DNA of 64,000 nucleotides from Yuukianura sp. NJ FZ-2021 (taxonomy: Eukaryota): assembly GCA_046563655.1 (NCBI GenBank), contig CM102287.1, positions 1 through 64,000 on the forward strand, written 5' to 3'. Under the pieces are notes generated by a model. It was not told the origin of the DNA. It did not search any database and saw only the letters and a program-made list of their open reading frames with translations. Position numbers and translations under genes: made by a program. Shown here one piece after another: positions 17,234-38,094 of this stretch (within the stretch, counting starts at the first letter, position 1; each line of letters starts with the position of its first letter).

Positions 17234-18428
17234 ATGGAGGTAAGTCAATCAAATTTGGAACAATTTGGTTCTAAATTTAATTTACTTATTTTATTTATTT
17301 CAGAACGAATTGGACAACGTGGTCGTAGATCCGGATTTTAACCCAGAAGGGGTTGTCGTCGAGGGGGTAATTTTTGTTCTACTATTTTTTTGAAAATTTT
17401 TCTAAAATTCTAATACAAGTTTAAATTAATTTAGCCCCGGTTGTACAACCTCCGCACGACACCTGTACCTTCGCAACCAATTGTCCAATTTCCGATTCCC
17501 TCTCAACGATTTGACAATTGGGGGGAATTAAAGAAACGGAAAGAAACGCTACCACGATTCCACGATATGAACATCACGAACGTGTTCTGGGTACGACGCG
17601 TCGGTGACGGGCCGGCAGCGGAAAATCAAAAACAGCGAGACTACCAATGGCAAGCCTATGTTGGCTTTGGCACAGAAGAAAATGAGTTTGAGCCGTAAGA
17701 AAATTTTGAAATCAACAATTACTTTTGTAGTTATTTTAAATTACCAAAACAACTTTTTTTTCTCTGTATAGTTACCATTGGGTACTTATAACTGAGAAAA
17801 CGCCGCCGCATGTGAAAGCCATGGTGACGACGGTGCGAAAAAGGATGCGAGGAATGATGGACGCAATAAGCTTTTTTCCGCCTCCGGTGAGGCCAGCACG
17901 ACTAGACCAGCTCGGTCTCCGGCCCAGGATTGAGGTAAGCTCTTTTTTTCATGGAAAATAACTTTGATTTAATTTTATTTGTATTAATTTTAGCCTTCAA
18001 GACCAGACTACTACATTTGTTACAAATGTCGCTGCACTTTTCCTGGTCTCGGATATTTAAGGAGGCACAACTGCTATCGGACGGAGGTCAACGGAATTGG
18101 CACTCAAACGACGCAACTAGTGCATAGCATCGCAACTCAGACTCCACCATCTGAGGAATGTCTCCCAGGACCTTCACGAGGAGCAATTCTTCCCGACTTT
18201 TCCACACTAAAATGTCAAAAGTGTGAAATGAAATTTTCAAAAAAGGCAAACTTCAAGCGTCATTATTTTACGATGCACCTTACAATGGGCATCAATAACG
18301 AAATGCACTACAAACACGAGTGCCGCTGTAAATACAAAACAAATCGATACGACAACTATATGCGCCACGTTTTGTCATGTAACATTGTATTAGGTGTTAG
18401 GTGCATGATTGAACTCGACCTCTTTTAG
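17234..18428 (+). CDS. Spliced zinc-finger protein with possible chromo-like N-terminal region and two TQT motifs (5 exons)
   Basis: GT-AG introns 17240-17303, 17367-17434, 17695-17771 and 17935-17993 join one open frame. Fingers: CYKC..HNC, CQKC..F..KANFKRHYFTMH, CRC..YMRHVLSC. Motifs GIGTQT and SIATQT. Confidence 0.75.
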
Positions 18429-18654
18429 CCAATTTTTTGTTAAATAAATTTTGTTGGTTTAAATTTAATTTTGTGCTACTTTATTTTAAAATGCTTTGGC
18501 AACTTTCGGAGTTGCCTTTGAGATGATTCTTAACAAGGTTTGGGACTTTGGGTGGATCACCCAGGATGGGTGGTCTGTTTGGACGTTGGACACACCCTCC
18601 TAATCTTTTCACTCCAAGCATGTGAGAAAAGCTTTCACGAAGATAGAAAGCATC

Positions 18655-18778
18655 AGATGGGGATTTGTGTGAGGAGCAGGCGATCATTTTTGCTCCTCAC
18701 GGCAGCTTATGTAAGAAGGAGAGGAAGCTGAGAGATGGGGATTTGTGTGAGGAGCAGCCGAACATTTTTGCTCCTCAT
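18655..18778. repeat. Two ~46-bp direct repeats, each containing a 10-bp hairpin
   Basis: AGATGGGGATTTGT-GTGAGGAGCA-N12-TGCTCCTCA(C/T) at 18655-18700 and 18733-18778. Confidence 0.85.
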
Positions 18779-19040
18779 GGGGCCTTATGAGAGAAACTTC
18801 TCAGTGCCACTATGTAGTGTGGGTGGTGGTGTTCTGAAAGAGGAGGATTTTTTTGTTTGAAAAAAAAATACTTGAGAAAGATACTCAATGTTCCAAAGAC
18901 GCCAGGCTTTGACAGTGGTAAGCTTTATTTTCAAAAGAGATGGCGCAGAGGAAGGATTTTTTGACAAACGGAGCTACAGTATATTTTAAAAAGAAAAGTA
19001 AAATTGTAGCAAAAAAAAAAGATTTTCACTCTATTCGGAT

Positions 19041-19842
19041 TCAAAGGGAGCTTTCACGGGCGGTAAAAGTTTCCAGTTGAAGCGCAGCTGCACCCCTCTG
19101 GAGTTGGTCACTCAGAGGTCTTGGCCTGCGGCAACGCTTCAATACACGAACGGCCATATATGAACCGATGATCACCAGTAGCCCCACTAGAATTAAAATG
19201 TGAGTCATGAGTACAAATTTGTTTTGAAATGATTACCTAAAACTTACCAATAATCAGAATCAACAAAAGAGTCAAGTCCAAACCTCCCTCTTGAACTGCC
19301 GGCTGCGGGATTACCGTGGTTGTTGGTTCGGTTGTCGGTGAGGTGGGTGGTGTCGTAGGGGCCTCAGTTGTGGTGATGTTCCTAATATTCCTGCAGGCCT
19401 CCCAGTTTGGCGGGTTTACGTTAAAAACGTATCCTCGGGCTGTCCCCTCCAGTCCACAAAACGTTTTACGTCGCCCCTCGTTGAACTCGAAAAATGAGCA
19501 CGCCTTAAGGACACACTCCACGCATTTCCACAATGCATTACACTTTGCTAAAAATGAATTATAAATTAAAATATGCAAATTGAAATTTTACAAATTAAAA
19601 ATCTTTTACTTACACATAATTGCAACTTCTTTGACTTTAGAGTTCTTGGAGTACGAAATACAGACTGATGAGCAATCTCATGCAAAATTTATTATTAGAG
19701 CTAAAATGAGTTCTCTTAAGTTGATGAACTAGTAATTGATCTGGATTTGAAACATCTCATACGATCAAATAGCAAGGATAATAAAAACTCCAGCGTCTAG
19801 ACAATTCCTTTCAGATGAGTTTATTCGAAGTTACCAAACCAT
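19041..19842 (-). CDS. Membrane protein 1: Cys-rich (PSI-like) domain, Thr/Pro mucin-like stalk, TM helix, tail ending ESSL; 5' end uncertain
   Basis: Introns 19548-19613 and 19187-19247 give ...KCNALWKCVECVLKACSF...TTTEAPTTPPTSPTTEPTTT...LTLLLILIIVGLLVIIGSYMAV-RVLKRCRR...TARESSL*. A signal-peptide-like exon (TLEFLLSLLF) lies near 19763-19796. Confidence 0.65.
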
Positions 19843-19845
19843 TTG

Positions 19846-22800
19846 TCATCCGCCTAACTTATTTTTCAAATCATAGTCAATAATAGATTCGATTCGCTTG
19901 TCACCAAATGGAAGGGAAATTGTGTTGGACACAAAAAATCTTGACGCGTTAATGCTTGATGTTAGGGATGCTCGGCTACTTGTGATCATCAGCATCTGGT
20001 CATCCAAAATTTTCACCTGAGAAACTTTGACTTTTTTCAGGGCTTCTCCATGCTCCACGACACGTTTGAAATCTGCATGCCTAAGTTCCTTGGCCTGTTT
20101 TTTTGGAATTCCACCGGCTTTCAGAATGTCGGATTCTCCAAACGCAGAGTCAATTTCCATTGAATATTGAGAACAGGAAGTAGAGTAAAATTCTTTGATC
20201 CCTTCAGCTTGAATCTTCAAGAGACCCGGGATTCCTGCCCGAGAAGCATCATAGAGTTCGGACGTCGGCTGTAGATTGGAAAAGTCGAAGCGATTCGAAA
20301 GTCGTTTCAGTCCAGCAACGTATTCGGCTCTGCTACAGTGGATCTCGGCCACAATACTGTCTGTATGAGTCATCACATGATGGCACCTGTCTCCAAACTC
20401 ACGTTTCAATCCGTCATAATAGTGTGAGTACAGCATAATTTTTGCATTTGAAAGTATAGCGAGTCCAATCATGCGCAGATTGTAATCTGTGATTTCCCCC
20501 TTGGAAAAGTCAAATAGCGCCGTATCTTCGTCCAAAATCTCGAACGACTTGAAAGTTGCCTTGGCTAGTTCTGCTTTCGCTTCTACCGAAGATCGGATGG
20601 CTTTTGACCGCATGTAATCTGAATTGTTTTTTAACATTTGTCCATAGAGCGAGTTGTTTAAAAGCTTCCGAAGTTGCTTTTGGAGGGGAAACTTTGCTTG
20701 ATTTCTTGCAATGACATTACTAGCAGCAAAATTTGCGAAAATTGGAGACTCCCTAAATCGAACTGCTGAATAGTACTTGGTAGGCATGGCGCCATGATCA
20801 ATCATGAACTTGAGGTATTTCCCATAGTAGACTTGTCGTTGTTTTTTGTAGAGGGTCAGCAACACTCGTTCCTGTTCAATTTTTGTTTTTTCTCTGAAAC
20901 TTTCTTGTTGGAATGGAGATAGCTCTTGAGTAGAAACCTTAAGTCGCTGTTGTGGGAAAGGAAAGTCTGAGAGAAAGTTTTTCACTTCCTCACTTTGATA
21001 TTCAAGGTCGACTTCAAAGAGGTAACCCCAACCGTCATCAAAATCTGGTTTGTTGAAATCAAATTTTATAATCTCCTCCGCGGTGAGTTTTTTGTAGCCT
21101 CCGCACGGTAGGTTACCCAAGAAGCACTTACTGTAGCACGAGTTAATGTCAGCATAAAAAATTATTTTTTGCGGAAGGTTATGGTCATAGTTGGAGAGCT
21201 GTTCATTGTTGGCTATAGACTTTAACTTTGTGACTTGAATGACAGGCCCATAGATTCCTTTCGTGATGAGTTTTGAAATTTCTTCATCCGTGACGGCTTG
21301 AATTTCACATTTCTCCATTAGGAACGCGGCTTCCCTTGAAAATGAAGAAATGCTCCAAAAAGAAGCCAAATCCAAATGAAACTCTTTCCAATATTCGTTT
21401 CGAATCGCTTGGAAAACGTCTGCGGTAAGAGCAGTGACACTATTTAGCTTGTGGCGGACTATGTTTTCCAGTGAAAGTTGTTTCCATGAATCGGGAACGT
21501 GGAATTCACTTGAACATTCTAGACTCTTGTAGGCAACTGATTTGTTTTCGAAAAAATCATCAACGGAAGAAAACTCAGGAAAAATCTCGTCTACTGCACT
21601 GTGTGTAGGGTCAGGAGAAAGTTGATTACCGAAAATTTGCTGGAAAATTGGAAATCCAATTCCGGACATCTTTAACTCTTCCACAAGTTCAGCGAGCGGC
21701 GAGTCTGGACGAAAATTTTGAAAGTCTATAAATTTGAGTCCAAAGTGAAGGTCATAGTTTTGCTTGCAAATAGTTTTTCTCAAGTCCAAACCAATTGTGT
21801 TTCCTTCTTTTCTTCGAATTGGGGTAGCAATTCCGTGTTCATCTTTTAGGCATTTTAGCAGAAGATTAAACTCATTCTTCTCACAAAATGCAATCGCTGT
21901 GATACGGTTCTTTGGTTTTATTTCCAAGTTGCAGTTTGTGCAACAGGTCTGCATCTTCTCCCCTGTGAAATGATCATGGTGATAAGCTCTCAGCACTAAA
22001 TCGTGGTTAAATTGCTTTCCACAAATTTCACAGTTTGTTGCTTTTATAAAAAGCCCTTCCTGTTCCTCAGTCATAGGGAGCATCTTGTTTGTGAATTTAA
22101 TTTCGTCGAGCTTCATTTTCGCCATTTCCATTGCAGTTTTAAAAAAAATGTCCACACAATCTTTTCCAATGTAAGAGTGCCGGTCTATGTGTCCCGTTTC
22201 GCATACACTCAGTAGACTGAAGCCAACTGGAATTTTTTGAGTAACACTGATACATTCTTGTCCTATGGTCATCGGAGTTTGTACAGAGACGTAGAAGAAC
22301 TTGTAGAAAAAAATGTAAGGAGCTTTCAGGAGGGCATCAAACTTTCGAAATTTCACAATATCATTCCTAGGCACTTTTACTTTTACAGAGTTTTCACCGC
22401 AAGTATGGTTTACGGAAGACCAAGTCCTAGAATCAAAACGTTTTTGACAAACAGGACAAAATTGATGCCGGAAATGATTATGTTTTCCGAGGAGTGCCGA
22501 AATGTCCCGAATGCAAACAAAGTGATGTTCTTCGCGTTCCGGATGCTTGATTAGTAGGAGATTGACATGATTCGCTCTTTCAGTTTGTGGTGCCCTCCAT
22601 AGAACAATTTCTGGCCCCTGATTTCCGTACACGGTGATGCTAAGGTCTGGGAATTTCTCTTCGACCAAGTCAATGTCCAAAAGAGAAACGTCCGGGTGAG
22701 GGAGAAAGCTCAAATCCATTCTCTCCAAGAAGGCTTCATAACTTGCTGTTTTCTCCAAAATTGCTCTCTCAACTTTAGACTTTTGATGATCTTTGAGCCC

Positions 22801-23711
22801 AAGACAGTGACGCTTCATTCTTCCCAGCTCCAAAATTTCATCTTCATATAGTGCACATAGCACGCTCAATTGGAAGCAGTTGGAATTGGTATTTATCGAC
22901 AAAAGTCCACGTCTGCGAGCCAATTCCTTTGGAATGGGAATGTAACCCCGCCCCCGAACAACTGGATTCCATTGACCGACACCAATGTGGAGAGAACGTA
23001 GCCGCAGAATCTGCCAATTGCTTCCGTTTTCTAGGTATAAGTTGAGGGCGTTGATGATGTATACACAAGAGTTTGTTACCACCCTTGAAATGAAATCGGG
23101 ATGAGAGAGAGGCATGAAGGGAGCTCCGATGGCGTCTCCGAGGTGAATGACATTGTGTGTGACCTCAATCATGTCAGCAATCAAAGTAAAGTTGACTTTG
23201 ACTCCACTGTACTGCCCGATCACTGATTTCAGTAACTTTCTAATAGGAAAGTCGAGGTTTTCAAAAACAGAAAGTACTTGACATTCGGTGGGTGGTTCAA
23301 CGGGTGCAGAAAATAACTTCAAAGTCCCCTTAAGAGCATGGCGGATTTCTTTGAAAGGACGGATATCCACCATAGCTAGGTCATCGGTTGGTCTACTACC
23401 CATGCCTCTCTGAGGACAGATTGGACGGTGAAGAGGAGCCTCGTCAAAGTACCCTCCACAAGAATTACAGCTATGTACCTGCATCAAAAGTGGAATTTTC
23501 ACATCTTTCCTCATGCTTGTGCTAAGTGTAACGTCTTACAGTTTCCACGTGGATGGCCATGGCCTTGTAGGTCGTGCATTTGAAAGTGCAAAGTAACGTA
23601 GGGCTCTGATATCCGCAACTAAACTGCAAATAAAAATTTTTGTGAAACAACAATAATAAGACGGCTTAGAATTTTTTTTACCTCGGCTGCCCGTTTATTC
23701 AGAAAACTCAT
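19846..23711 (-). CDS. pPolB: Protein-primed family B DNA polymerase with N-terminal zinc finger, TP/vOTU-like region and endonuclease VII-like insert
   Basis: 1222-aa ORF with YADINSCY, KLLNNSLYG and THTDS; GSNW...YIPIP...NSNCF...HF N-terminal block; CEIC...HHDHFTGE...CTNCN. Probable 5' exons via introns 23624-23681 and 23479-23539 complete a C2H2 finger (C..C..HVET|VH). Confidence 0.93.
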
Positions 23712-23757
23712 TTTATTAAATTATTAAACAATTTTTTCCAATTAGCTAGCTTCAGAC

Positions 23758-24429
23758 TCAGACTTCGGACTGACGGGGGGATCGACGAAGGGCGACGTTA
23801 AATACACTGCCGTATGTCCCGCGCGATTGGCTACCATGACATTGACCTCCCAAGCTCCACCCCAAAACGTTTGCCACGACAGCAGCAAAGGTCATGCATG
23901 ACAAGGCTGTGGATGAACAACACGATTAATTGGGGACCCATCTAAAAGGAATACGACGTCTTACCCAGAATAGTCCGTAAAATCGGAAGTTGGGAGGGTG
24001 CTTCAAATTTTTGTTGCTTTTTGCAGCCGGTCATTGCTCTCAATAGGTTTGAAATATCTTTCAGTGCCGTTCCGTTGCTGATGTTATCAGCAAACAAAGT
24101 TCCATAAACGATTCCATCCGTGTCTTGCTGATGCGAATCGCACTTGGCCGTGACATTTGTGCTGCCCATTATGAGGGTTCCTGGGAGGTTCCGCGTCATG
24201 TCATTTGTGCAAAAAAAGTTTTGAACCGAATTGAAATGCCATCCTTTGATGAACACATGACCGCCTGAGATGCAACTCCTGCAGCGTTCTTGGAGACTTT
24301 TGTCTTCTCCAGTTTTCAAAAAGAAAGGAATCACTCACCTTCTAAAATGAAGGAAATAGTAGCTTACTTACCTTGACACGATGACGCGGTGATTAGAAAG
24401 CACAACAGGACAAGATTCGAGAGAGCCAT
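23758..24429 (-). CDS. Membrane protein 2: signal peptide, Cys-containing glycosylated ectodomain, TM helix, tail ending QSEV
   Basis: MALSNLVLLCFLITASSCQ | intron ~24308-24371 | ORF body (CRSC; sequons NVT, NIS, NGT) | intron 23907-23964 | ILRTILALSCMTFAAVVANVLGWSL...RRSPRQSEV*. Confidence 0.68.
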
Positions 24430-24522
24430 TACACTACTTGTCGACTCGAATAGAGTAAAATGAATACTGAAGCGTTTGTCAGGCAGTTGCTGAATTTTTA
24501 TGTTTTATTTACATTTGAAAAA

Positions 24523-25082
24523 TTAGTTTTGCCAATCACATAAAGAATAGCATGTCTGAGATGACCCTGAGTGACCCCTTTTCGTACAGATGCCTAAACT
24601 ACTATAAAAATCAAGTACAATTTTTTCGTTTTTGTTTAAATTTTTAGGACTAAATATACGTAAAGAACTACACAAATCTTTTCCGCTGCTCAACTCTTGA
24701 AAGACTTTTAAGCAGAACATGCCGCACGTTGCACTGTCATCCTTTTGTAGTTTTTTAGTGTTCCATTCCGAGATTGTAGTGCATGGGCCGTAAGGAAGAG
24801 ATAGGTTGTAATCGCTAGGCAATTTCCCAAAACTGTCAAAAAAAACCAACCGGCCTTGCTCCAAGTGCGCCCAGAGAACCCAATGGATTCCTAAATTAAA
24901 ACAAAAAATAAATCTCTTGCGTTTCCATATTTTTTTTACCTCAAGCATTTACCTGGAGAAGAAGTTAAGCCGGTATTTTGTATACAACAGAATGGAGGGC
25001 GTGGGTTTAGAAGGCTAATTCCATCATTAGAACTAACAAAAGTTCGAATTTTCGGGTCAGAGCACTCTTTTATACACGCCAT
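24523..25082 (-). CDS. Adenain-like (adenovirus C5/Ulp1-fold) maturation cysteine protease, 2 exons
   Basis: IQNT...G|IHWV...FFDSFG...LQ..DSATCGMFC gives the H-D-Q-C catalytic set; intron 24891-24952. Confidence 0.9.
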
Positions 25083-25110
25083 CGCTTCCTCCAGTTCCGC
25101 CCGTTCATCC

Positions 25111-26412
25111 TCAAGTTTTAAGAACTTGCGCGTTTCTGTTTTTGTCAATTGTTAATACGTTTTGAAAAGTTCCCAGCACAATCAACTCGACTGGCTCGTT
25201 CAGGGCTTCACCAAAGACTGCAGTTACACGGACGGGTCCTTCGCGAGCAGGAAGGAGGTCATTGTTGGATACAGCAGCTTCAGAAAGTTGGAAAAGGTAG
25301 ACGGCGTTGCCAAGTTTGAAATTCTCGCGGGAAATTCCGTTTCCAAAAGAACCGAGTGTATCAAATAGAGCCACGAATGGTTCCATGTACAGGTTTGCAG
25401 CGTAATTACAGACAAGTTCTCTGTAAAATGGAACAAATTCTTCGGTTCTGACGCTGATTGAAGTTATGCCAAAGTCGGCAAAATTCTGTGCGCTATTCTT
25501 GTAGTTTCCTCGAAACGCTTTTGATTTAACCAAGGCAATTGCAACAATCGTAGGCATCCTGCGAAGAAAAAGTCGATCCGAGGTGAAGCTGACAGTTCCG
25601 GAAGCGATTGTGTTTCTTTCAATTTCAATTTCTCGGTAACTGTAGATTGCTTTTTTTCCATGGTTGAATAGTTGCTGATGGTTAGAGTAGATTCGAGGGC
25701 TAATTGTATGTGCCTTGAGATGAAAGACGGCATCTTCAATGGAATACGTATACTTTGTGTCGGTGGGCGTGTCCAAGCAGAAAGGGGCTGAGTTTTTAGT
25801 CAGTGTAAGTTCAATTTTTAGTCCCGAAGGAATCCATCGTTGGAGTTCACACAATGAACATGAAATTTTTCCAAACAAATCAAAGGTCTTTGACCCGGCA
25901 CACATTGCTTTTCGTTTCGTATATCCAGTGTTTGTTGCGTCAAAGACATCCTGTTTGGAATCTGGGTAGTAGGCAATTGATGACAGGAGGCTCGCTTTGA
26001 GTTCTTGACTGTAGCCCAGGAGATGCGACAGAATTCCTCTGTAACTGTAACTTTGTGGGTACTCACTCATTTGGACGCCACCTACCGTGACCGTGCAGGA
26101 GTCAAAGATTGTGTAGAACATCATGTTGCTAATAGCAACGTCGGCAGTATCCGGAAGCGTTTCTCCACTTGCAGTGAGAACTTTACATTTTAGGTATAGG
26201 TATGAAGATGAGAAATCCAAGTAAACGTTTGGCGGAAATTGAAACTGCCCAATGTTGAATGTGATTTGAGGATTTTCTTTTACAGTATTCACAGGAATAA
26301 TCTTGATGAACTCTGTTTGCTGCACACTAATGTCAGTCGGGGGAACTGAAAATAGATCGAGTTGGGAAACGTAGTTGGGCTTTGTACCCGGAAGCGTGTT
26401 TACTGAAGCCAT
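25111..26412 (-). CDS. Major capsid protein (double jelly-roll, Polinton PY-type), 433 aa, intronless
   Basis: N-terminal SQLDLFSVPPTDISV, YLDFSSSYLYLKCKV, YSYRG and ...IVLGTFQNVLTIDKNR patterns typical of Polinton MCP; size and position next to the protease. Confidence 0.88.
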   Translation of the reverse strand: MASVNTLPGTKPNYVSQLDLFSVPPTDISVQQTEFIKIIPVNTVKENPQITFNIGQFQFPPNVYLDFSSSYLYLKCKVLTASGETLPDTADVAISNMMFYTIFDSCTVTVGGVQMSEYPQSYSYRGILSHLLGYSQELKASLLSSIAYYPDSKQDVFDATNTGYTKRKAMCAGSKTFDLFGKISCSLCELQRWIPSGLKIELTLTKNSAPFCLDTPTDTKYTYSIEDAVFHLKAHTISPRIYSNHQQLFNHGKKAIYSYREIEIERNTIASGTVSFTSDRLFLRRMPTIVAIALVKSKAFRGNYKNSAQNFADFGITSISVRTEEFVPFYRELVCNYAANLYMEPFVALFDTLGSFGNGISRENFKLGNAVYLFQLSEAAVSNNDLLPAREGPVRVTAVFGEALNEPVELIVLGTFQNVLTIDKNRNAQVLKT

Positions 26413-27997: not shown

Positions 27998-27998
27998 T

Positions 27999-29155: not shown

Positions 29156-29286
29156 GCTAAGAACCTACAAAAGAAATTACACAAGACAGTGTATGACGGC
29201 GACTGCCGTCTGAGTATGACTTTTTACCAAATTTATTTAAAAAACGACCGAATTTTCGAGAATTATTTAAGCTTAAGACTCAGGGG

Positions 29287-29750: not shown

Positions 29751-30051
29751 TTTGAAAATGATGGCGCTTACTACGGAATGATGGCTTTTCCAAACTCCTG
29801 TCGCTTTATATACCCTATCGAACTGAGTGGAAACGTTTTGAAAAAATGTTGACTAGAAATTTCCAAAATTTTCAGTCCATTGAAAATTCCGCTCTGTTGA
29901 ACTCAAAAGGCCCTACGGCATACTAAATGCGATTACTCATGCACACAAAAAAAAAGCCAAGGAAATATATTCTTGTGCACTTTCCTCCTTTGTATTCAGT
30001 CGCACTTTCCTCATCCCCTCCTCAAGTCACAAGCAAAATATTCAGAAAGCA

Positions 30052-30930
30052 ATGGAAAACACAGAGCCAGCTAACAACCAGTTTCCTAGCCATGAAGAAT
30101 TGCCAGAAGAAAGAGATTGGACAGAAGTATTCAAAGTGAAAATCAGTCATCCGGACACTGTGGATTGCACTTTAATTACGACAGGCCCTAAGATTTTCAA
30201 AGTACTACGCATTGAACAGCACGGCACGGCAACCACTTTGGATTTCAAAGTGATACCAAAACTCATCGGAAAGCTTTTTCAACTTTATCTTCAGAACGGT
30301 GGGCGAGCGAGCGAGCTGCCGTATGTAACACTTTATCATGAGAGAGGTTCAACTTGCCTTATAATTCGACACAAAGACTCCAAGGAGGTTAGAAGCTGGC
30401 CGCAGAATTCTGAAAACGGTCGTAAAACTGATCCAGACCCAATCCGCTGCCCACAAGGAATGTATCCCGCGCCAACTATCGTGTATCAGACGTCTCAAAT
30501 GGACGGGTTTTGGCCGAGGCAGGCTGAATCTCGTGATAGCAGTACCGATTGGGCACAAGTAGACAAATTGCGCATCAGTCAGCCGGACGCTTGGGATTGT
30601 TCTCTAATTACGGAAGATCTTAAGGTCTCGAAGGTCATCCGCATCGAACAGCACGGCGCGGCAGCCACCGTGGATTTCCAAATGATTCCGAGCCTAATCG
30701 GCAAATTGTTTCAACTCTTTCTTGGAAGCGGCGGGAGAGTAACAGAACTGCCGAGAGTAAAACTTTATCACCAGAAAGGCACTACATACCTCGTGATTCG
30801 GGACAATGACTCTGTGGACAATTGGAACTGGCCAACTGACTTGGAAACGGGTCCTAGGATCACGCCTCTAGGAAAATTAATCGAGTATCAGACATATCGA
30901 ATCGAAGGAGACGAGGTATTCGTGGCATGA
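30052..30930 (+). CDS. Hypothetical 292-aa protein made of two diverged ~100-aa repeats
   Basis: DWTEVFKVKISHPD..RIEQHG..LIGKLFQL..GGR..ELP..LYH vs DWAQVDKLRISQPD..RIEQHG..LIGKLFQL..GGR..ELP..LYH; synonymous divergence between copies supports coding. Confidence 0.85.
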   Translation: MENTEPANNQFPSHEELPEERDWTEVFKVKISHPDTVDCTLITTGPKIFKVLRIEQHGTATTLDFKVIPKLIGKLFQLYLQNGGRASELPYVTLYHERGSTCLIIRHKDSKEVRSWPQNSENGRKTDPDPIRCPQGMYPAPTIVYQTSQMDGFWPRQAESRDSSTDWAQVDKLRISQPDAWDCSLITEDLKVSKVIRIEQHGAAATVDFQMIPSLIGKLFQLFLGSGGRVTELPRVKLYHQKGTTYLVIRDNDSVDNWNWPTDLETGPRITPLGKLIEYQTYRIEGDEVFVA

Positions 30931-31149
30931 TTGGGCAAAAACTGAGCCACAGAGACGCCTCACTAGCGTTAGAAACGTATATTGAATAGCATTACTCCAC
31001 TAGCATTTGCATAAAAGAATTTTGTCTTTGTGAAATTTATTTGAATTCTGGTGAAAAATTTGTATTATTTAAAATTTGATAAAAAACTTTCAATTTTTCC
31101 GAAATCCTTTTTCCAAGCCTTGTTCAGTTTACAGAACACACCAAAAGTT

Positions 31150-31585
31150 GCTCACAAAAAAAAAAGAAAAGAAAGAAATCCATTCATTGCCATGCTCCGT
31201 TGAACTCGAAAATTTGTTACCAAATTGCAAGAAAAAGAAGTGCTCAAGAATCAAAACTCAAAATTTAACAATTTAAATAAATTTAAACTTCATTTCTTTT
31301 GTCTTAGAATTCTTTTTAAAAGGTTAAAAAGTTTTCAAAAAAAAACAACACATTTTTTTTAAAATTCAATTTAAAAAAAAAAGAAAAGAAAGAAATCCAT
31401 TCATTGTCATGCTCCGTTGAACTCAAAAATTTGTTACCAAATTACAAGAAAAAGAAGTGCTCAATAATCAAAACTCAAAAGTTAATAATTTAACTAAATT
31501 TAAATTTCATTTCTTTTGGCTTAGATTTTTTTTTAAAATGTCAAAAATTTTTCAAAGAAAAAACTGATTTTTTTGTTAAAAATTC
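31150..31585. repeat. Two diverged ~218-bp AT-rich direct repeats between convergent genes
   Basis: AAGAAAAGAAAGAAATCCATTCATTG(C/T)CATGCTCCGTTGAACTC...AATCAAAACTCAAAA at ~31163 and ~31381. Confidence 0.85.
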
Positions 31586-31789
31586 AACTAATCTTCCCTA
31601 GCCTGAATTTTTTAAAAACAAAGCAAAATGCAGTTGGTTCCAGTTCGCTGCACTCCACATACTACTCTGCCAAATTGTAAATACCAAAAAAATGCAAAAG
31701 AAATAAATAAATAAAAAAGAAAGAAACACAAGACATTTCAAAATCCATTTTTTATTTCTTTGTCTTTTTTTTAGCCTAACCGGAAGAAG

Positions 31790-32198
31790 TTAACGACGTA
31801 TCCTTTGTCGTAGATCCTCGTCACTTGCATTGTATATAACTGAAAAGACAAAAAAAATTACTATTTTAAATTGAGTTCGGTTTAAATAATTAATCAATTG
31901 TTGGCTTACTCTTCTCGATCAGCTTCATCTGCGCAAACCGGTGCATCTCGCGGTAGTGCAGAAATTCCTCCATTGCACCCGGCTCCTCTGGCTTCAAATA
32001 GTAGTTTGGAATCTCGCGGCGTCTCGCCCAGAAGTGGTGCCAAGCGGCACGTAAACAATCGTAGCGGAAAAAGGCCTCCAATGTTAGGCGCCGACGCCAG
32101 TTCCCGCCAGTCCTCTGGTCATCACAGATGACCTCCTGAGGGCACGAGCAGCCGTCCCAATCGTCGTGTTCACAAGGCCGCGACACAATACCTCCCAT
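31790..32198 (-). CDS. Small hypothetical protein with N-myristoylation-like start (MGGIVS), probably 2 exons
   Basis: ORF body 31890-32198; donor GTAAGC near 31909 and acceptor TTTCAG near 31840 give ...IEKIIYNASDEDLRQRIRR*; TATATAAA upstream near 32262-32269. Confidence 0.6.
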
Positions 32199-32352
32199 GG
32201 TAATGAAATGCAGTTTAAGGAGAAGAAAGTAATCTGACAAAAGACGGCCAATTCTCCAGAGTTTATATACTACCAGAAAATCATCTCAACTCCAATTAGA
32301 ACTGAGAAAAACACTAGCTCACAGCTAGAGATATTTATTCGAGCATAAATTC

Positions 32353-33271
32353 TCATAAATCTTCAGGGTCAACCTTAGCAACAATGTTTTGCATTGTTTT
32401 TACAAAACCGTCAATATCTCCCCGACAAAACGTTAACTTCGGCCCAAAATAGCCGTCAAACTTCGAGTTGTCGCTCGGGGAATTGAGATAGAAAAAATAT
32501 CTGTCCCTGCGGACGTTGATGAAGCGCATTCTAAAGCGCATAGTTTCGCTATACCAAGTATCGTCATGAGTCCAGAATGAGAGCTCTTTGGGCTCAATCA
32601 GGGTTCCCGGCTCGTACTTGAATAAGGGAGCTCCTGCCTTGACAGACTCGTCAATCTCGTCCAAGGTAGATTTTATTTGTTCCAGGATGACACCAACTTC
32701 TCGAAACAAGATTCCAAGGATCGTTGGGCTTGCGTTCGAGTTGAGCTTCTGGATGTAAATCTTCATGGCTGCAAAAGAAAAAAAATTTTGTGAAAAATTA
32801 CAATTGAAGCTTATTCATATTTTAGGTCAAACGTACTCTGAGAATACGGGTCAAATCCGAGCCGAGCGTAGAAAGTAGTTGATGTTCCGAACTTCTCCAC
32901 AAGTCCAGATTCAGAAAAGAATGCTTGGGCATTCTTCGGTCCAAGCTCCAGTTGCTTTGCTTTCGTGACGTAGCTCATGGGAATTCCGGAGAAAGCCTCC
33001 GTAAAAACAAACGGAGTCTGCGGCGGTCTTCCTTCCACGACGTCTTGACCCGGGTTAGCTACACCGGTCAACAAGTCAATCGCCCTCCGACTTCTTACAA
33101 GTGAAGTGGCTTCATCAACGTTATCAAAGTCCAAACGTCTTTTAAACGCTCCGACCTTTTGCGTTGGGGCTTCTGAAATTATTTTTAAAATGATTAAATT
33201 TTAAAAAAAATAGAAGAAAAAGTATTTTTAAAAAAACTGCAGTTCAAAAATTGTTACTCACCGCTTCCCAT
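32353..33271 (-). CDS. Hypothetical spliced protein with KRRLDF motif; possible PC4/PUR-like ssDNA-binding repeats
   Basis: MGS|EAPTQKVGAFKRRLDF...FDPYSQ|TMKIYIQ... joins ORFs 33254-33487, 32811-33134 and 32353-32766 by two GT-AG introns. The start may be at 33487. The fold guess is weak. Confidence 0.6.
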
Positions 33272-33858
33272 TGTCGAATTTCTTTGATATTGGCCCTTTT
33301 GAAATTGTAAAAGTTGAGTACTGATGACGGGATCACAAATACTGTCCCTTTTAAGGGAAAATTTCAACCCGATTGACCCCTGAGTTTCCCGAAGCAACCA
33401 ATCCGATGTCGTTTCAATTTCCCCCAGTTCCTCCCCCGACGCTTCTCCGCTCCGCTGACGATGAAATTTTCGACTCCGTTGACCCATGACTTTGGTGAAA
33501 GCAAACCGTCAACGTCTTAGCGTCACCGGAGATATGCTTCAATGCCGTTCTGGTGCAGGTCAGTTGTGGCCTGCACCGGATGTTCTAGAAGTTGAACTTT
33601 TGTTTGGACCCAAGCCGTTCCGGGTGACCGATTTAGGCGCGCGTCACGGCTCGCTAATTCCCGGCCACTGTCCTCGACGTTGTTCTAGGCTACAGTTCAA
33701 GAACTCCAGCCAAAACTGATTTCCAGTCTGATAAGCTCCGTTCATCGTCTTTTGCCCCTGTTTGACCTAGGGGGCAGTCCAACGGAAAAAAAAACATCGA
33801 TATAAAACACGGACTGAAAATCGTTTTTAGGGCCGAAAAGTTTGTTAAACCCCTCAGT

Positions 33859-34263
33859 ATGAATTCATCAACACATCATTGCTGTAAATGTGTAAAAATA
33901 TTTAGTCCAATCAGAATCAAGGTAATCAAAGACAGGCTTACTAAATCGCGCTGCCGAGACATTGAGAAAATTGTTCGGGAAGACTACTCACAGTGCACGA
34001 ACTGTGACATTGTGTGGGACGGATTTGCGCAACACGTCTGCCCGTCGACAAAGCCTTCGAAGCCCTTGAGTATTGTGGAGATTTTGTGCAGTATTCAGCG
34101 TTGGAGCAGCAAAGAGCCATTTACGTTTGGCGGATTTAGATTCAAAATTGGAAGAGTCACCGCATTGGACGCCGCTTACATTCAAGACGAAATTTTGAAA
34201 AACTTTAACGTTTTTTACTCTTCACGTCTGCCCGTAAAGTCCATCAAGCGTTGCAGACTGTAA
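33859..34263 (+). CDS. Hypothetical 134-aa protein with a Cys/His zinc-binding-like motif
   Basis: CTNCDIVWDGFAQHVC motif; TATAAA at ~33801 and TCAGT immediately before the ATG; abuts the helicase start. Confidence 0.6.
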   Translation: MNSSTHHCCKCVKIFSPIRIKVIKDRLTKSRCRDIEKIVREDYSQCTNCDIVWDGFAQHVCPSTKPSKPLSIVEILCSIQRWSSKEPFTFGGFRFKIGRVTALDAAYIQDEILKNFNVFYSSRLPVKSIKRCRL

Positions 34264-34265
34264 AG

Positions 34266-36176
34266 ATGGATAAAAGTTCACTCAAACGAAAGCTGGAGAA
34301 AGGAGAAAGCGGAGGAAACGTTGTACGCAAGTTGGTTCCGAGTAATCCATTAACGTTTTTAGAATACTGCAAAACTCAGCCCGTCAACAGAGTATTTCCG
34401 GTCGTTGAACTAGAGCAGCTCAATTCCAAGCAGCGTCAAACTGCAAAACTGGTGACTGAAGCCCTCTCTGCTCGTAACCAGGAATTCATTCTGTGCCACG
34501 GCGCGGCTGGGACAGGCAAGCCAACAGATATTTCTTTAGGAATTTCATCTGAAATTATTTTTTTTTTGAAATTTAGGAAAAAGCTTCATAATACACTATT
34601 TAAGAGGCTATTTTGAAAAAAAAAAGATTCGTTTCCGTGTCTTTGCATTTACTGGTGCAGCTGCATTCAACGCGGGAGGAATAACTGTTCATAGCGGCCT
34701 CTCATTAAGTCTAGGTCATCGAAAGCATGACCCGGAAAAATATGTCGAATTTCCAAGGGAGAGACTGAAGGGAGTACGACTTTTAATAATTGACGAAGTT
34801 TTTATGCTCGGGGTTGGTCTCCTGGGATACATGGAGCGAAGACTTCGGGCAATTTTCAGGACACAAGAACCATTTGGAGGTCTAACCGTGTTGGCCATGG
34901 GTGACCTGGCACAGTAAGCTACACTTTTAAATGTGGAAACCTCATAATAATGATGTTTGATGTTTAAGGCTAAGTCCAGTGGCGGATAGACCATTATACT
35001 ACAAGTCTGCGCATGCCGAAGGCTTGTGCTTGGATGGGATCAAGGCGTACGCGCATTTTAACAAATGCATAATACTGACAGAAATTATGCGGCAGGACGA
35101 GTCTCAAGCCAAGTTGAAAGAAATTTTGTCGCGCGTACGTTGCGGAAAACTAGAAGAACAAGACATTGAAGCGCTGCAATTGAGGTCTTTGGAACAACTT
35201 TCTTCAGTCCTGACTGCGGAAGAGCTTTCACTTTTCCTCTCCGCTCCTGTTCTCTTTGCAGAAAATCACAACGTGAATAGTTACAATGAGTAAGTCTCTA
35301 TAAGATACTGAATTTATGCATACTATTAAAAATGTAAAAAATAGAAAACGAATTTCGGAGCTGGGCGTTGACATTACGGAGGTGGACGCCATCGACATGC
35401 GAGATGAGACAAAGACTGGCGACAAATTGAAGCTAGCGGTTGGAGCCCGCTGCATGCTAACCAAGAATCTTTTTGTCGCAGCAGGTATACCATAGTAACC
35501 ATACTAATTTTAAAAAGACTAATTTCTGATTTTTCTAACAGGACTTTACAACGGAGCACTTGTCACAGTCACTCAGATTTCAACCGAAGTAGACGAAAAC
35601 GGAGTTCCAAGTTTCGTTTTCGTCCGTCCCGACACATATTTTGGCGTTCCATACCCACTCAGGAGAGATATTCCTATAGTTCCGCTCGTGATGCCATACT
35701 ATGACAAGTATGCGGGAAGAACTTACCAAAGAAAGTTATTCCCATTGCAACTGGCTTGGGGAATGACATGTCACAAGGCACAGGTGAATTACCTCAAGAC
35801 TATGCTAAAAACATTTGATCATTTGTTTTTTCTTTATAGGGCAAAACTTGCAAACGGGTAGTGGTGGGGAATCCAGCACCCGGTGACACATCAACAATGT
35901 TTACTAGTCAGGCGCCTCAGTTGGTTTATGTAGCAATGAGTAAGAAACAATTTTTTGCATTTTTTTTTCATATTTTTCAAGCTTAATAATGAAATTTAAA
36001 ATTTAGGTCGTGTCACAACTCTGGACGGATTAATGTTCCAGCACCCATTCAGTCCAAATCTGGTCGTGGGACATAGGAGCCTAGCTATTCGGCAATGGCA
36101 GGAGGAATTACAGCGCCTAGAAGCCATGGAAGCCAACACCAACACGAATTTCAATTTAATTTTAGATTTAAAATAA
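34266..36176 (+). CDS. pif1: PIF1-family SF1B DNA helicase, 7 exons
   Basis: GAAGTG|KS, AFTGAAAFNAGGITVHS, LLIIDEVFM, PFGG..GDLAQ|LSPV, LTEIMRQ, FPLQLAWGMTCHKAQ|G, YVAMS|RV. Introns approx. 34516-34576 (GC-AG), 34914-34968, 35290-35344, 35485-35541, 35783-35840, 35939-36006. Confidence 0.92.
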
Positions 36177-36273
36177 ATAGTTTTATGGTAGCATTGTGAA
36201 TTTTGGCTTTACTAGTAAAAGTATTCATAGATTTCCATTCAACTGTATTCAGTTTGCAAGAATTTTTAACAAA

Positions 36274-36357
36274 GTACAAGTGGTTCAGTGGTATGAGCGT
36301 GTTCCGAAAATTTTTGTTGCCATGGGTTCAAATCTCGTGTGGTTCAACTTTTTTTTT
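36274..36357 (+). promoter_or_regulatory. Second tRNA-like Pol III A/B-box element
   Basis: TGGTTCAGTGGTATGAGC (D-arm-like GTTC/GAGC stem) ... ATGGG-TTCAAAT-CTCGT (T-arm-like), then a T9 run; an internal T5 is also present. Confidence 0.45.
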
Positions 36358-36655
36358 ATTCCAAATACTATGTTTTCTTATTGTTGAAACAATTCGTTGT
36401 TTAAAAAAAATTATTTTTTATTTTTTTGAAAATTTTTAATATAATTGAAAAGATAAAACAGCATAATTAACTTAAAAACTAAATTCAAGTTAAAATTTGC
36501 CCATATGTACTCATCTCAGGGGAGTGGGTACAAAGGTGAATGCAGGTGTGCATGTGCAGCCGGTTGTAAACAAAAGCACGTGAAAGTGAAAGTTGTAAAA
36601 ACTCCCACTTCCTCGTGCTTCTGTTTTGTGGTGTGTTGCCGGAGGATTCCAAGAA

Positions 36656-38094
36656 ATGGTAAGTTTTTATAATTAAACTTAACCTAATTAAACTAAATTA
36701 AACTAAAAACTAAAAATTATTTATTAAAATTTGTTTTTAGGAAAATTTTAGAATGTTGTTGGGCCACTTGGCAGTCGTTGTCCTGTTTGGAGCCACCGGG
36801 TTTGGGGATCCCCCCAAATGTGACCTGAACTGGCCCTGTGTTCAGTGTCTGGGGGAGCGATGCGCTTGGTCGAGGCGTGAAGACGGGGTGGGGGTATGCC
36901 ACCCCATTGGGGAGACCCCCAATGGGCGCTACATCTTCTCGTGGCTGCCCCCTGACACCCTCAAGTGTCCCCAGCCTGACCAGGCACGAGAAGGGGTCCC
37001 CGCGGGGGAGTGGGAGACTGCTGCAATCGTTTTGGCAGCGTGGTTGGCACGTAAGTTTTTTTTTATAAAATTGGAACGATACAGAGTAAGGTTTGTTGAC
37101 TTTGATTTTCTTTAACAGGTTGAGTAATACCTCATGTTTTTTTAATTTTGCAAAAATAGTGTCTTTCATTTCATGATATCGTAGTCATAACAATACAGCC
37201 GATTTTTTTTTTAAATTTTGCATACGAATTGGTACCATTTTTTTTTGTATTTGTACAAAAATTTGCACCAATTTCCGTTTTTTTTCATTTTTTTTTTGTC
37301 AACGAGGAAGGTAGTACTCAACCTGTTAAAGAAAATACAGACAAATCACTAATTCATGATTTGTCTGTTTCAGTAGTGACAACATGTGTCGTGGGTGCAG
37401 GGATTCGGTGGTTGATTGGGTGGGTTCGGGAGTGGAGGGAGCCCCACCAACACCGGGGATTTAGGCCCCGCCCACCAACACCACATCCAGCACCGCCTGC
37501 TGCTCCACGACGTGCCACCACTGCACCACCACAGATGCCCCACCGTCCAGCTCCACCAACTCCTGCAGCAGCAGCGACTGGCTTGGCCCCACCACCGTGG
37601 GGTGAGTACCCCAATCTGACCAGCCCCACGATGGTGCAGCATCTGGAGCCGTTACGGCAGTCGGAGAGGCTGGCTGCCAAGCGGCAGCATCCGGGATATT
37701 CCCGGCCAAGGCAAGGTTTGTTTTTGTTTTTATTAAGTAGCGAAAGCTACTTTATTCAGAATCTGCAATGCAATTTTATTTGCAAGTAAACAGAATGAGA
37801 GTGGAGAGTAGAGTGGAGAGTGCGGACGTAGAAGTAAGCACCTCTCTCCATTGTCATTCTGTTTGCTTGCAAAAAAAAACTGCATTGCAGATTTTTGCAA
37901 CTTTTTTTTAATCAAATTTTGTTTTTATTTCAGGTACCGGTACTAGGTACCAAGCACCCAGCACCAGCACCAATCCATTTCTTCGCGGGAACATGGTTTC
38001 GTTCCCGTTTGCGGTTACAAATCCGCAGTATTCAGCACTGGATCTAAATCCTACGGGATTAGTTTCCAGTGCTGAAGAAACGTCATTTGTTTAA
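36656..38094 (+). CDS. Membrane protein 3: signal peptide, Cys-rich (PSI-like) domain, TM helix, Pro-rich tail with YPNL, NPF, NPQY and terminal TSFV (4 exons)
   Basis: Introns 36659-36740, 37051-37373 and 37716-37933 join M|ENFRMLLGHLAVVVLFGATG..KCDLNWPCVQCLGERCAW..AAIVLAAWLA|LVTTCVVGAGIRWLIGWV..PRQ|GTGTRYQAPSTSTNPFLRG..TNPQYSAL..AEETSFV*. Confidence 0.75.

What the first reader, a model, noticed from the sequence alone, without database searches (positions are those of the whole stretch)
17234..38094. Intron-rich Polinton: about 25-30 short spliceosomal introns, including in core viral genes
Seen: integrase (3-4 introns), protease (1), PolB 5' end (2), PIF1 (6) and most accessory genes are split by mostly 50-80-nt AT-rich introns that restore conserved motifs exactly (SSPG|IHW, KAG|HLPHFLASDFGKEF, GDLAQ|LSPV, HKAQ|G, AMS|RV). 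Major capsid, minor capsid, the basic core ORF and the 3.6-kb PolB body are intron-free. Known: core Polinton genes are usually described as single ORFs. Inference: a lineage that has adopted host-like gene architecture, perhaps to escape silencing of intronless RNA or to regulate expression. ORF-based screens would wrongly call it decayed.
Basis: partly seen in the sequence, partly recalled or inferred. Interest (0 to 1): 0.82.

Follow-up and report, generated by a model that had tools for sequence, protein, structure and literature searches.

The report
Intron-bearing Polinton inserted in satellite DNA
A complete virus-like Polinton transposon has short host-type introns in its integrase, protease and helicase genes but none in its polymerase and capsid genes, so screens that expect unbroken reading frames would wrongly call it dead.

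Summary
The core observation holds. The element is wider than reported: 16641-38688 (22,048 bp), with ~260-bp TIRs, AG...CT termini and a 6-bp AGTATG duplication. Intact satellite monomers in the same window serve as empty sites.

I find 19 well-formed introns (50-89 nt, median 61; GC 0.23 against 0.43 for coding; 18 GT-AG, 1 GC-AG) in 8 genes: integrase 3, protease 1, PIF1-like helicase 6, zinc-finger gene 4, membrane gene 2, three small genes 1 each. Two more well-formed ones lie in a leader upstream of PolB and directly after the right-end gene's ATG. About 4 are ambiguous. The total is therefore 19-25, not 25-30.

All five cited junctions are confirmed. Integrase and helicase exons tile homologue-derived profiles contiguously. 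Related copies in two organisms keep the introns, and their best-supported indels avoid exon bodies.

Not supported: introns in the PolB coding sequence, and a fourth integrase intron (that segment is coding). No RNA data exist, so splicing itself is inferred.

In the papers I could read, Polinton core genes are described as intronless. I rate this a new variant of a known kind.

The parts
16635..16640 (.). Left target-site duplication, AGTATG
   Evidence: Read directly. The same 6 bases stand at 38689-38694. In other satellite monomers the two flanks overlap by exactly these 6 bp.
16641..38688 (.). Whole Polinton/Maverick element, 22,048 bp, termini 5'-AG...CT-3'
16641..16897 (+). Left terminal inverted repeat (~260 bp, in pieces 79-97% complementary to the right one)
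   Evidence: pairs I1, I2, I3, I5, I6.
38422..38688 (-). Right terminal inverted repeat
38689..38694 (.). Right target-site duplication, AGTATG
17234..18428 (+). C2H2 zinc-finger gene, 308 codons in 5 exons. Introns 17240-17303 (64 nt), 17367-17434 (68), 17695-17771 (77), 17935-17993 (59).
   Evidence: Weak zf-C2H2 hits. No homology support for the junctions.
19041..19617 (-). Membrane-protein gene, 149 codons. Introns 19613-19548 (66 nt) and 19247-19187 (61 nt). The second splits a hydrophobic helix that continues across the junction.
19846..23514 (-). Family B DNA polymerase ORF, 1222 codons, uninterrupted, with an Endonuclease VII/HNH-like insert at about residues 490-531
   Evidence: ORF. 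Atlas clusters carrying DNA_pol_B_2 and Endonuclease_7, score 0.97-0.98; weak Endonuclease_7 hits. Motif strings resembling DxxSxY, KxxxNSxYG and TDS read directly.
23624..23681 (-). Well-formed 58-nt intron in a short ORF or leader upstream of PolB (ATG 23711). It does not join the PolB frame.
   Evidence: score 8.8, GC 0.24.
23942..24429 (-). Gene for a Cys-rich protein with a signal-peptide-like start. One ambiguous intron 24371-24307 (65 nt, weak acceptor).
24523..25082 (-). Adenain/Ulp1-like cysteine protease gene, 165 codons. One intron 24952-24891 (62 nt, phase 1), two residues before the presumed catalytic His.
   Evidence: Peptidase_C48 E = 0.0022. Best PDB match is a chain titled 'Protease' (4piq), aligned over the Q..CG active-site stretch, E = 0.8.
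25111..26412 (-). Major capsid protein ORF (double jelly-roll type), 433 codons, uninterrupted
   Evidence: Atlas 0.98 to clusters with DJR-like_dom, 0.96 to a cluster with Capsid_N.
26474..26830 (-). Basic Lys/Arg-rich ORF, uninterrupted
26897..27997 (-). 366-codon ORF in the position of a minor capsid protein, uninterrupted. Identity not verified.
   Evidence: No family found. Fold unusable, pLDDT 33.
28028..29155 (-). rve integrase gene, 319 codons in 4 exons. Introns 28777-28720 (58 nt, phase 0), 28362-28313 (50, phase 0), 28226-28167 (60, phase 2).
29287..29750 (-). Small Cys-rich gene, 134 codons. Intron 29719-29661 (59 nt). A 170-nt GT..AG segment (29334-29165) could alternatively fuse it in frame to the integrase.
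30052..30930 (+). 292-codon ORF with an internal duplication, uninterrupted, no family found
31790..32198 (-). Small gene starting MGGIVS, 112 codons. Intron 31909-31840 (70 nt).
   Evidence: Start and stop coordinates worked out by hand from those outputs.
32353..32766 (-). 137-codon ORF, uninterrupted, 45 nt downstream of the preceding gene
32811..33271 (-). Small gene starting MGS, 123 codons. Intron 33261-33173 (89 nt).
33859..34263 (+). 134-codon Cys-rich ORF just upstream of PIF1. A link to PIF1 would need a 32-nt segment, which I reject.
34266..36176 (+). PIF1-like SF1 helicase gene, 519 codons in 7 exons. Introns 34516-34576 (61 nt, GC-AG, inside Walker A), 34914-34968 (55), 35290-35344 (55), 35485-35541 (57), 35784-35839 (56), 35940-36006 (67).
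36656..38094 (+). Right-end gene (signal peptide, Cys-rich domain, hydrophobic and Pro-rich segments). Intron 36659-36740 (82 nt) directly after the ATG. Two further long introns are ambiguous (37051-37373 or shorter; 37716 or 37602 to 37933).

Best explanation
This is a structurally complete copy of a multi-copy Polinton/Maverick family. Its genes are transcribed in the nucleus and must be spliced by the host's U2-type spliceosome. At least 19 short introns interrupt 8 genes, among them two core genes (the rve integrase and the adenain-like protease) and the PIF1-like helicase. The polymerase, capsid and several small ORFs have none. Polintons copy themselves as DNA, so introns, once gained, are passed to every new copy, unlike in retroelements. 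Shown: the boundaries, the composition, the restoration of frame and of homology, and the retention of introns in related copies. Inferred: that the segments are actually removed from RNA, and that the element is expressed at all.
For: (1) Element identity: TIRs, AG..CT termini and a 6-bp TSD, and dozens of empty sites where the flanks overlap by 6 bp.
(2) 19 of 19 introns have GT (18) or GC (1) at the 5' end and AG at the 3' end. Counts at 5' positions +1 to +5: G19, T18, A17, A18, G11/A6. There is a T-rich tract before the 3' end, and Y at -3 in 18 of 19. Lengths are 50-89 nt and GC is 0.229 against 0.427 for coding sequence. 16 of 19 lengths are not multiples of 3, and the 3 that are carry in-frame stops, so none can be read through.
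(3) Each of the 8 spliced coding sequences has a length that is a multiple of 3 (arithmetic coordinates), and accepted only candidates without a stop in the kept exon parts or the split codon.
(4) Integrase: against a profile of 80 full-length relatives, the exons match positions 1-130, 134-250, 251-277 and 279-307. With X at each junction they align as one domain, 1-306, 292 bits, E = 1.5e-90. tblastn with 89 full-length relatives gives 2 or more collinear pieces for 72 of 89; for example P0044 residues 1-133, 136-252 and 254-286. 5 of 5 references tested carry Pfam rve.
(5) PIF1: against a profile of 29 relatives, the 7 exons match in order 9-33, 36-153, 156-250, 276-297, 359-377, 389-400 and 403-428. 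X-joined they form one domain of 210 bits, against about 126 bits for the sum of the pieces.
(6) Controls: 0 of 1186 comparable segments in 6.1 kb of uninterrupted ORFs. In the three genes tested there are 14 intron-like donors on the sense strand and 4 on the antisense strand.
(7) Related copies: 2140, 1855, 404 and 842 contigs of four runs from two organisms lie on the stretch at 85-99+% identity. Organism-B contigs span the zinc-finger gene, the protease region and PIF1 introns 1-2 with length differences of only 9, 1 and 3 nt. Of the 12 best-supported indels shown, 7 lie in introns, 1 in a spacer and 4 within the last 5 codons of two genes; none lies in an exon body. None of the 15 joints shown excises an intron. 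At 34919 most copies read T, which turns the PIF1 intron 2 donor into GTAAGT.
Against: There is no RNA evidence: no RNA run holds the stretch, so splicing is not shown. Nine introns (zinc-finger 4, membrane 2, three small genes) rest only on signals and frame continuity, and the element's AT-rich non-coding DNA yields about 0.8 chance intron-like segments per kb. The protease junction has only weak homology support, and no relatives were found for it. One search shows only the best-supported rows: 194 indels and 19 joints are not shown, so an intron-less copy could be hidden there. The copy lacks a recognisable packaging ATPase, so it may not be autonomous.
Confidence: 0.82

Rival explanations
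1. Decay: the interruptions are random insertions and frameshifts in dead genes, and the GT..AG ends are coincidence.
For: Most Polinton copies in genomes are degraded; in vertebrates, spliced-alignment software reports insertions as 'introns' (passages of PMC8097293). No RNA data are available here.
Against: 19 of 19 have canonical ends, a narrow size range and GC 0.23. Every gene is open after their removal. None of the 12 best-supported indels in other copies falls in an exon body. There were 0 of 1186 control segments. About 13.6 kb of coding sequence has no stop or frameshift other than at these segments.
Confidence: 0.04
2. Introner-type origin: the introns are copies of an intron-generating transposon that invaded the element, as reported for dinoflagellate eupolintoviral proviruses.
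For: PMC12166617 (abstract and passages) reports introners in 25% of viral elements, with about 25% of viral introners in coding regions.
Against: All-against-all comparison of the 19 introns finds only 11-23-nt low-complexity matches. 18 of 19 occur once in the 64-kb window, and one has a second short match.
Confidence: 0.04
3. Mosaic origin: the intron-bearing genes were captured from the host or from another element with their introns, or evolved for a long time in a resident lineage, while the intron-free polymerase and capsid genes were acquired recently by recombination from an intron-less, virus-like relative.
For: There are 0 introns in about 8.1 kb of coding sequence (PolB, capsid, 366-aa, basic and three small ORFs) against 19 in about 5.5 kb; under random placement P is about 3e-8 (my arithmetic on coordinates). 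Polymerase replacement among Polintons is documented (10.1101/2023.08.22.554363, abstract and passages). In nematode Mavericks the introns are confined to cargo genes (10.1101/2022.07.12.499685, passages).
Against: The integrase and protease are core genes, not cargo, and the protease lies between the capsid gene and PolB in the same gene array. No composition break separates the two sets. This rival concerns the origin of the pattern and is compatible with the main explanation.
Confidence: 0.25
4. The segments are removed at the DNA level, like ciliate internal eliminated sequences, not by RNA splicing.
For: They are short and AT-rich, as such sequences are.
Against: The ends are GTAAG...YAG, not TA...TA. 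The ORFs use the standard code with all three stop codons. No listed DNA contig lacks any of them.
Confidence: 0.01

Closest known systems
Polintons/Mavericks of vertebrates and nematodes
   Same: TIRs, 6-bp TSD, family B polymerase, rve integrase, adenain-like protease, double jelly-roll capsid gene, and the size class.
   Different: Their core genes are described as intronless: PMC8097293 passages, '134 elements ... eight conserved and intronless ORFs'; 10.1101/2022.07.12.499685 passages, 'all of these intronless genes', with introns only in cargo. Here the integrase has 3 introns and the protease 1. No packaging ATPase was found. A PIF1-like helicase is present.
pPolB2-type Polintons with an HNH insert in the polymerase (nematodes, oomycetes)
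   Same: The polymerase ORF has a weak Endonuclease VII/HNH-type match at residues ~490-531 and resembles clusters that carry DNA_pol_B_2 plus Endonuclease_7. 10.1101/2023.08.22.554363 (abstract and passages) describes such an insert.
   Different: Membership in that clade is untested, since no tree was built. The Atlas clusters are commonest in Arthropoda. That paper's elements were defined from ORFfinder ORFs and include an ATPase and a fusogen.
Ginger1 DNA transposons (integrase-type transposase, some with a Ulp1 domain)
   Same: A DNA element whose integrase-type gene is interrupted by 1-4 introns, including one GC-AG (PMC2836005 passages and Table 1).
   Different: Ginger1 elements are 2.6-7 kb single-gene cut-and-paste transposons without polymerase or capsid genes.
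Introner-bearing eupolintoviral proviruses of dinoflagellates
   Same: Polinton-like integrated elements that contain spliceosomal introns, some in coding regions (PMC12166617).
   Different: Those introns are copies of transposon families. Here the introns are unrelated to one another.

Membership tests
Polinton/Maverick | Terminal inverted repeats | tested here: met
   16641-16897 against 38422-38688, pieces 79-97% complementary.
Polinton/Maverick | 6-bp target-site duplication and 5'-AG...CT-3' termini (definition recalled; 6-bp TSD also stated in the PMC8097293 passage) | tested here: met
   AGTATG on both sides; empty sites with a 6-bp overlap in other satellite monomers.
Polinton/Maverick | [quoted passage not shown] | tested here: inconclusive
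   Atlas feature search scores 0.97-0.98 to clusters with PF03175 (20-27% of members) and 0.91 to one where 100% carry it. Motif strings were read directly. Pfam, PHROGs and PDB sequence searches give no polymerase hit.
Polinton/Maverick | Retroviral-type (rve) DDE integrase | tested here: met
   Candidate D, D, E catalytic residues were read directly.
Polinton/Maverick | Adenain/Ulp1-like cysteine protease | tested here: inconclusive
   Peptidase_C48 E = 0.0022, below the curated cut-off. PDB 'Protease' 4piq E = 0.8, aligned over the Q..CG stretch. No relatives found.
Polinton/Maverick | Double jelly-roll major capsid protein | tested here: inconclusive
   Atlas 0.98 to DJR-like_dom clusters and 0.96 to a Capsid_N cluster. 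No Pfam hit. Not folded.
Polinton/Maverick | Minor (penton) capsid protein | tested here: inconclusive
   A 366-aa ORF stands in the expected position, but no family was found and the fold is unusable, pLDDT 33.
Polinton/Maverick | FtsK/HerA-type packaging ATPase | tested here: not met
   No continuous Walker A in six frames apart from two chance-looking strings. No ATPase family among 51 ORF pieces other than the PIF1 exon. An ATPase split by introns at its motifs cannot be excluded.
U2-type spliceosomal introns | GT(GC)-AG ends with extended donor consensus and a pyrimidine-rich 3' tract | tested here: met
   18 GT and 1 GC; AG in 19 of 19; counts at +1 to +5 are G19, T18, A17, A18, G11/A6; the 3' end is T-rich.
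U2-type spliceosomal introns | Removal restores one open frame and contiguous homology | tested here: met
   for the integrase and PIF1. For the other genes, frame only.
U2-type spliceosomal introns | Absent from mature RNA | not testable with these tools
   No RNA run holds the stretch.
Introners | Introns are copies of one or a few repeated families | tested here: not met
   no similarity beyond 11-23-nt low-complexity matches.

The most novel reading that the evidence does not exclude
The intron pattern is functional and not merely tolerated. Nearly every putative transcription unit of the element carries at least one intron, while the long replication and virion ORFs themselves stay intron-free. 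PolB has a leader intron. The capsid genes sit in a tightly packed integrase-to-protease array (spacers 28-66 nt, no poly(A) signal until after the protease) whose first and last genes are spliced. By my reading, 10 of 11 putative units have an intron; the 292-codon ORF is the exception. This would be a Polinton lineage selected so that all its messages pass through the spliceosome, for export or to avoid surveillance of unspliced foreign RNA, and it would be expressed partly from a polycistronic precursor.
Probability: 0.15. Interest if true: 0.75.

Novelty: new variant of a known kind. Interest (0 to 1): 0.6.

Why it matters
Surveys of Polintons, Mavericks and polinton-like viruses commonly define intact elements by uninterrupted ORFs or use prokaryotic gene callers, on the stated ground that such elements have no introns (PMC8097293, PMC10120064 and PMC9356565, passages). 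Under those rules, a family like this one (multi-copy, present in two organisms, with every gene open only after splicing) would be scored as degraded or have its integrase, protease and helicase missed. If the introns are spliced, the element also offers a dated, multi-copy system for studying intron gain in a DNA mobile element. It would also raise the question of why polymerase and capsid genes resist introns while neighbouring genes carry one per roughly 290 nt.

Tried and rejected
- RNA evidence: no RNA holder is listed for 28000-37999.
- Own genome: not held.
- Earlier notes on this genome: none.
- PolB relatives by word search: none. PolB against PDB, Pfam and PHROGs: no polymerase hit.
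- tblastn with distant PIF1 relatives found only 2 of the 7 exons, so I replaced it with a profile.
- Single exons against Pfam gave mostly sub-threshold hits.
- Protease relatives: none.
- Related integrase loci: the alignment was too diverse for the tool. The single closest relative returned one 1.2-kb metagenome contig that is not an integrase locus.
- Shared intron position in other elements: 13 of 53 N-terminally truncated integrase relatives begin at profile positions 133-139, just after my exon 1/2 junction, against about 2.7 expected. Two of the ten looked up lie on contigs of 2.2 Mb and 415 kb. Without their DNA this stays a hint only.
- Fold of the 366-aa ORF: pLDDT 33, unusable.
- Trans-splicing or leader splicing at acceptor-like sites before start codons: only 3 of 17 genes score >= 3.5, against 4.7% of random positions. 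Dropped.
- tRNA genes: none by ARAGORN or Rfam.
- Rejected introns: integrase '4th' (coding); 18-27-nt segments before PolB; a 23-nt segment at the end of the secreted-protein gene; a 32-nt segment between the 134-codon ORF and PIF1.
- Papers not held: Kapitonov & Jurka 2006 and two Polinton reviews. Pritham et al. 2007 was not looked up. What these say about introns is known to me only through PMC8097293's remark.
- My claim that introns in Polinton core genes are not in print rests on searches and on passages read. No supplements were opened.

Full report
WHAT IS THERE

The window is a 508-bp satellite array whose copies are mostly 99-100% alike, interrupted by one 22,048-bp insertion at 16641-38688. 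The insertion has ~260-bp terminal inverted repeats, begins AG and ends CT, and is flanked by AGTATG on both sides. In dozens of other monomers of the same satellite the two flanks lie side by side and overlap by exactly 6 bp, for example 209-458 with 453-702. The window therefore holds its own empty sites. The finding's coordinates, 17234 and 38094, are the first start codon and the last stop codon inside the element.

GENES

On the minus strand, reading from 29750 down to 19041:
- a small Cys-rich gene;
- an rve integrase;
- a 366-codon ORF;
- a basic ORF;
- a 433-codon capsid ORF, which resembles clusters carrying DJR-like_dom and Capsid_N (score 0.96-0.98);
- an adenain/Ulp1-like protease;
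- a gene with a signal-peptide-like start;
- a 1222-codon family B polymerase ORF, which resembles clusters carrying DNA_pol_B_2 plus Endonuclease_7 with proteins of 1159-1288 aa, and has a weak Endonuclease VII match at residues ~490-531;
- a membrane-protein gene.

On the plus strand lie a C2H2 zinc-finger gene at the left end, a 292-codon ORF, a 134-codon ORF, a PIF1-like helicase (Pfam PIF1 E = 4e-12 on one exon) and a right-end membrane-type gene. Three small genes lie on the minus strand at 31790-33271.

I found no packaging ATPase. The polymerase, protease and capsid assignments rest on leads and weak hits, not on significant alignments (see the membership rows). The minor-capsid label is unverified.

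THE INTRONS

I read each region in three frames. I then enumerated every frame-compatible GT/GC..AG segment between in-frame anchors.

Nineteen top-ranked segments form a tight class:
- Length is 50-89 nt, median 61.
- GC is 0.229, against 0.427 for 8,388 nt of coding sequence.
- Counts at 5' positions +1 to +5 are G19, T18 (C1), A17, A18 and G11/A6.
- The 3' end has a T-rich tract, Y at -3 in 18 of 19, and AG in 19 of 19.
- 16 of 19 lengths are not multiples of 3, and the other three carry in-frame stops, so none can be read through.

After removal, all 8 genes are open and their lengths are multiples of 3:

| Gene | Introns | Codons after removal |
|---|---|---|
| Zinc-finger gene | 4 | 308 |
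| Membrane gene | 2 | 149 |
| Protease | 1 | 165 |
| Integrase | 3 | 319 |
| Small Cys-rich gene | 1 | 134 |
| MGS gene | 1 | 123 |
| MGG gene | 1 | 112 |
| PIF1 helicase | 6 | 519 |

The intron that splits the helicase Walker A motif (34516-34576) is GC-AG, with an AG|GCAAGC donor. No GT alternative keeps the motif.

Two further segments are equally well formed: 23681-23624, in a short ORF or leader upstream of PolB, and 36659-36740, directly after the ATG of the right-end gene. About four more are ambiguous: one in the secreted-protein gene with a weak acceptor, two long ones in the right-end gene, and a 170-nt segment that could fuse the small upstream gene to the integrase.

HOMOLOGY TESTS

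An exhaustive search with integrase exon 2 gave 1104 relatives at E <= 0.001. The 5 of 5 tested carry Pfam rve above the threshold.

With 89 full-length relatives as tblastn queries, 72 of 89 give 2 or more collinear pieces on the integrase region and 17 give one. P0044, for example, maps residues 1-133, 136-252 and 254-286 to three pieces in frames -1, -2, -1.

Against a profile of 80 full-length relatives, the four exons match positions 1-130, 134-250, 251-277 and 279-307. With X at each junction they align as one domain of 292 bits, E = 1.5e-90.

For the helicase, against a profile of 29 relatives, the seven exons match in order. The X-joined set aligns as one domain, positions 9-427, at 210 bits, against about 126 bits for the sum of the pieces.

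The protease junction is supported only by motif reading and weak hits.

CONTROLS

Inside 6.1 kb of uninterrupted ORFs, 0 of 1186 GT/GC..AG segments of 50-89 nt reach the weakest observed score with GC <= 0.33. The element's AT-rich non-coding DNA gives 5 such donors in 6,374 nt, both strands summed. The sense strands of three intron-bearing genes give 14, and their antisense strands 4. Signals alone are therefore not fully specific in AT-rich DNA, and I treat the nine introns without homology support as probable.

RELATED COPIES

No RNA run holds the stretch. DNA contigs of four runs from two organisms do: 2140, 1855, 404 and 842 contigs at 85 to over 99% identity, so this is a multi-copy family.

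Organism-B contigs cover 17200-18491, 23901-26082 and 33913-34998 with length differences of 9, 1 and 3 nt, so they keep the introns in those stretches.

Of the 12 best-supported indels listed:
- 7 lie in predicted introns (four in integrase intron 2, one each in PIF1 introns 2, 3 and 4);
- 1 lies in the capsid-protease spacer;
- 4 lie within the last five codons of the basic ORF and the integrase;
- none lies in an exon body.

None of the 15 listed joints removes an intron. 194 indels and 19 joints were not shown.

WHAT IS NOT SUPPORTED

The PolB coding sequence has no intron. No intron-like link joins an upstream piece to its frame, and the ORF already has the length of its relatives.

The integrase's supposed fourth intron is coding: if retained, it gives G-NNF-RR-IL, which fits the family's GxxYxxEL.

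The introns are not introners. Acceptor-like sites before start codons are not systematic.

PATTERN

About 8.1 kb of coding sequence (PolB, capsid, 366-aa, basic and three small ORFs) has no intron, while about 5.5 kb has 19. Random placement would give that with P of about 3e-8 (my arithmetic).

The array from the integrase to the protease has spacers of 30, 66, 61 and 28 nt and no AATAAA/ATTAAA until 14 nt after the protease stop. This suggests one transcription unit whose end genes are spliced. That is inference.

COMPARISON WITH WHAT IS KNOWN

In the papers I could read (passages only), core genes are called intronless in vertebrate Mavericks (PMC8097293) and nematode Mavericks (10.1101/2022.07.12.499685). 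Surveys assume endogenous viral genes have no introns (PMC10120064, PMC9356565).

The nearest precedents are Ginger1 transposons, with 1-4 introns in an integrase-type gene (PMC2836005), and introners in dinoflagellate eupolintoviral proviruses (PMC12166617).

Kapitonov & Jurka 2006 and the main reviews were not held, and Pritham et al. 2007 was not looked up. An earlier mention of introns in some Polinton cannot be excluded.

VERDICT

This is a real and mostly correctly described feature: a structurally complete Polinton with genuine-looking spliceosomal introns in core and accessory genes, conserved across a multi-copy family. The count is somewhat lower than claimed, and PolB is intron-free throughout its coding sequence. 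Splicing itself and any adaptive purpose remain to be shown.

Noticed in passing
window 16641-38688: No FtsK/HerA-type packaging ATPase gene is recognisable, although the other usual Polinton genes are present. The only good P-loop is the helicase's, and that one is split by an intron.
   Followed up: partly
window 24523-29155, minus strand: Integrase, the 366-aa ORF, the basic ORF, capsid and protease are separated by only 30, 66, 61 and 28 nt, with no poly(A) signal until 14 nt after the protease stop. This may be a polycistronic unit.
   Followed up: partly
window 37760-37895 and 38128-38250: Two very stable hairpins (-73.9 kcal/mol, z -13.3; and -45.5 kcal/mol, z -8.7). The first lies inside the putative long intron of the right-end gene. 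Rfam gives only sub-threshold miRNA-precursor-like matches.
   Followed up: partly
window ~16876-16897, ~38422-38443 and ~36262-36345: tRNA-like strings: a T-arm-like GGTTCGAATC in both TIRs, and D-loop-like and T-loop-like strings after PIF1. ARAGORN and Rfam call no tRNA.
   Followed up: partly
window 1-16640 and 38689-64000: The host DNA is a 508-bp satellite with at least 78 copies in the window, mostly 99-100% identical, plus longer variants of ~723 bp. The element sits in one monomer.
   Followed up: partly
window 17240, 19613, 33261, 36659, 29719, 23681: Six genes or leaders have their first intron within 1-10 codons of the start codon. In the right-end gene it comes directly after the ATG.
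   Followed up: no
window 31156-31564: A 217-bp tandem repeat (1.9 copies, 92% matches) lies in a GC-poor (0.28) gene-free stretch between oppositely oriented genes. It may be a regulatory region.
   Followed up: no
window 18640-18790: Two direct copies of a ~60-nt unit, each containing an inverted repeat (GAGGAGCA...TGCTCCTC), lie between the zinc-finger gene and the membrane gene.
   Followed up: no
window 32196-32198 and 33269-33271: Two small proteins begin MGGIVS and MGS. The first fits the N-myristoylation pattern MGxxxS (pattern recalled, not tested).
   Followed up: no
proteins P0035, P0059, P0076, P0089, P0093, P0098, P0147, P0157, P0175 and others: 13 of 53 N-terminally truncated integrase relatives from public data start just after the position of this element's first integrase intron. 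Two lie on contigs of 0.4-2.2 Mb. This may be the same intron position in other elements.
   Followed up: partly
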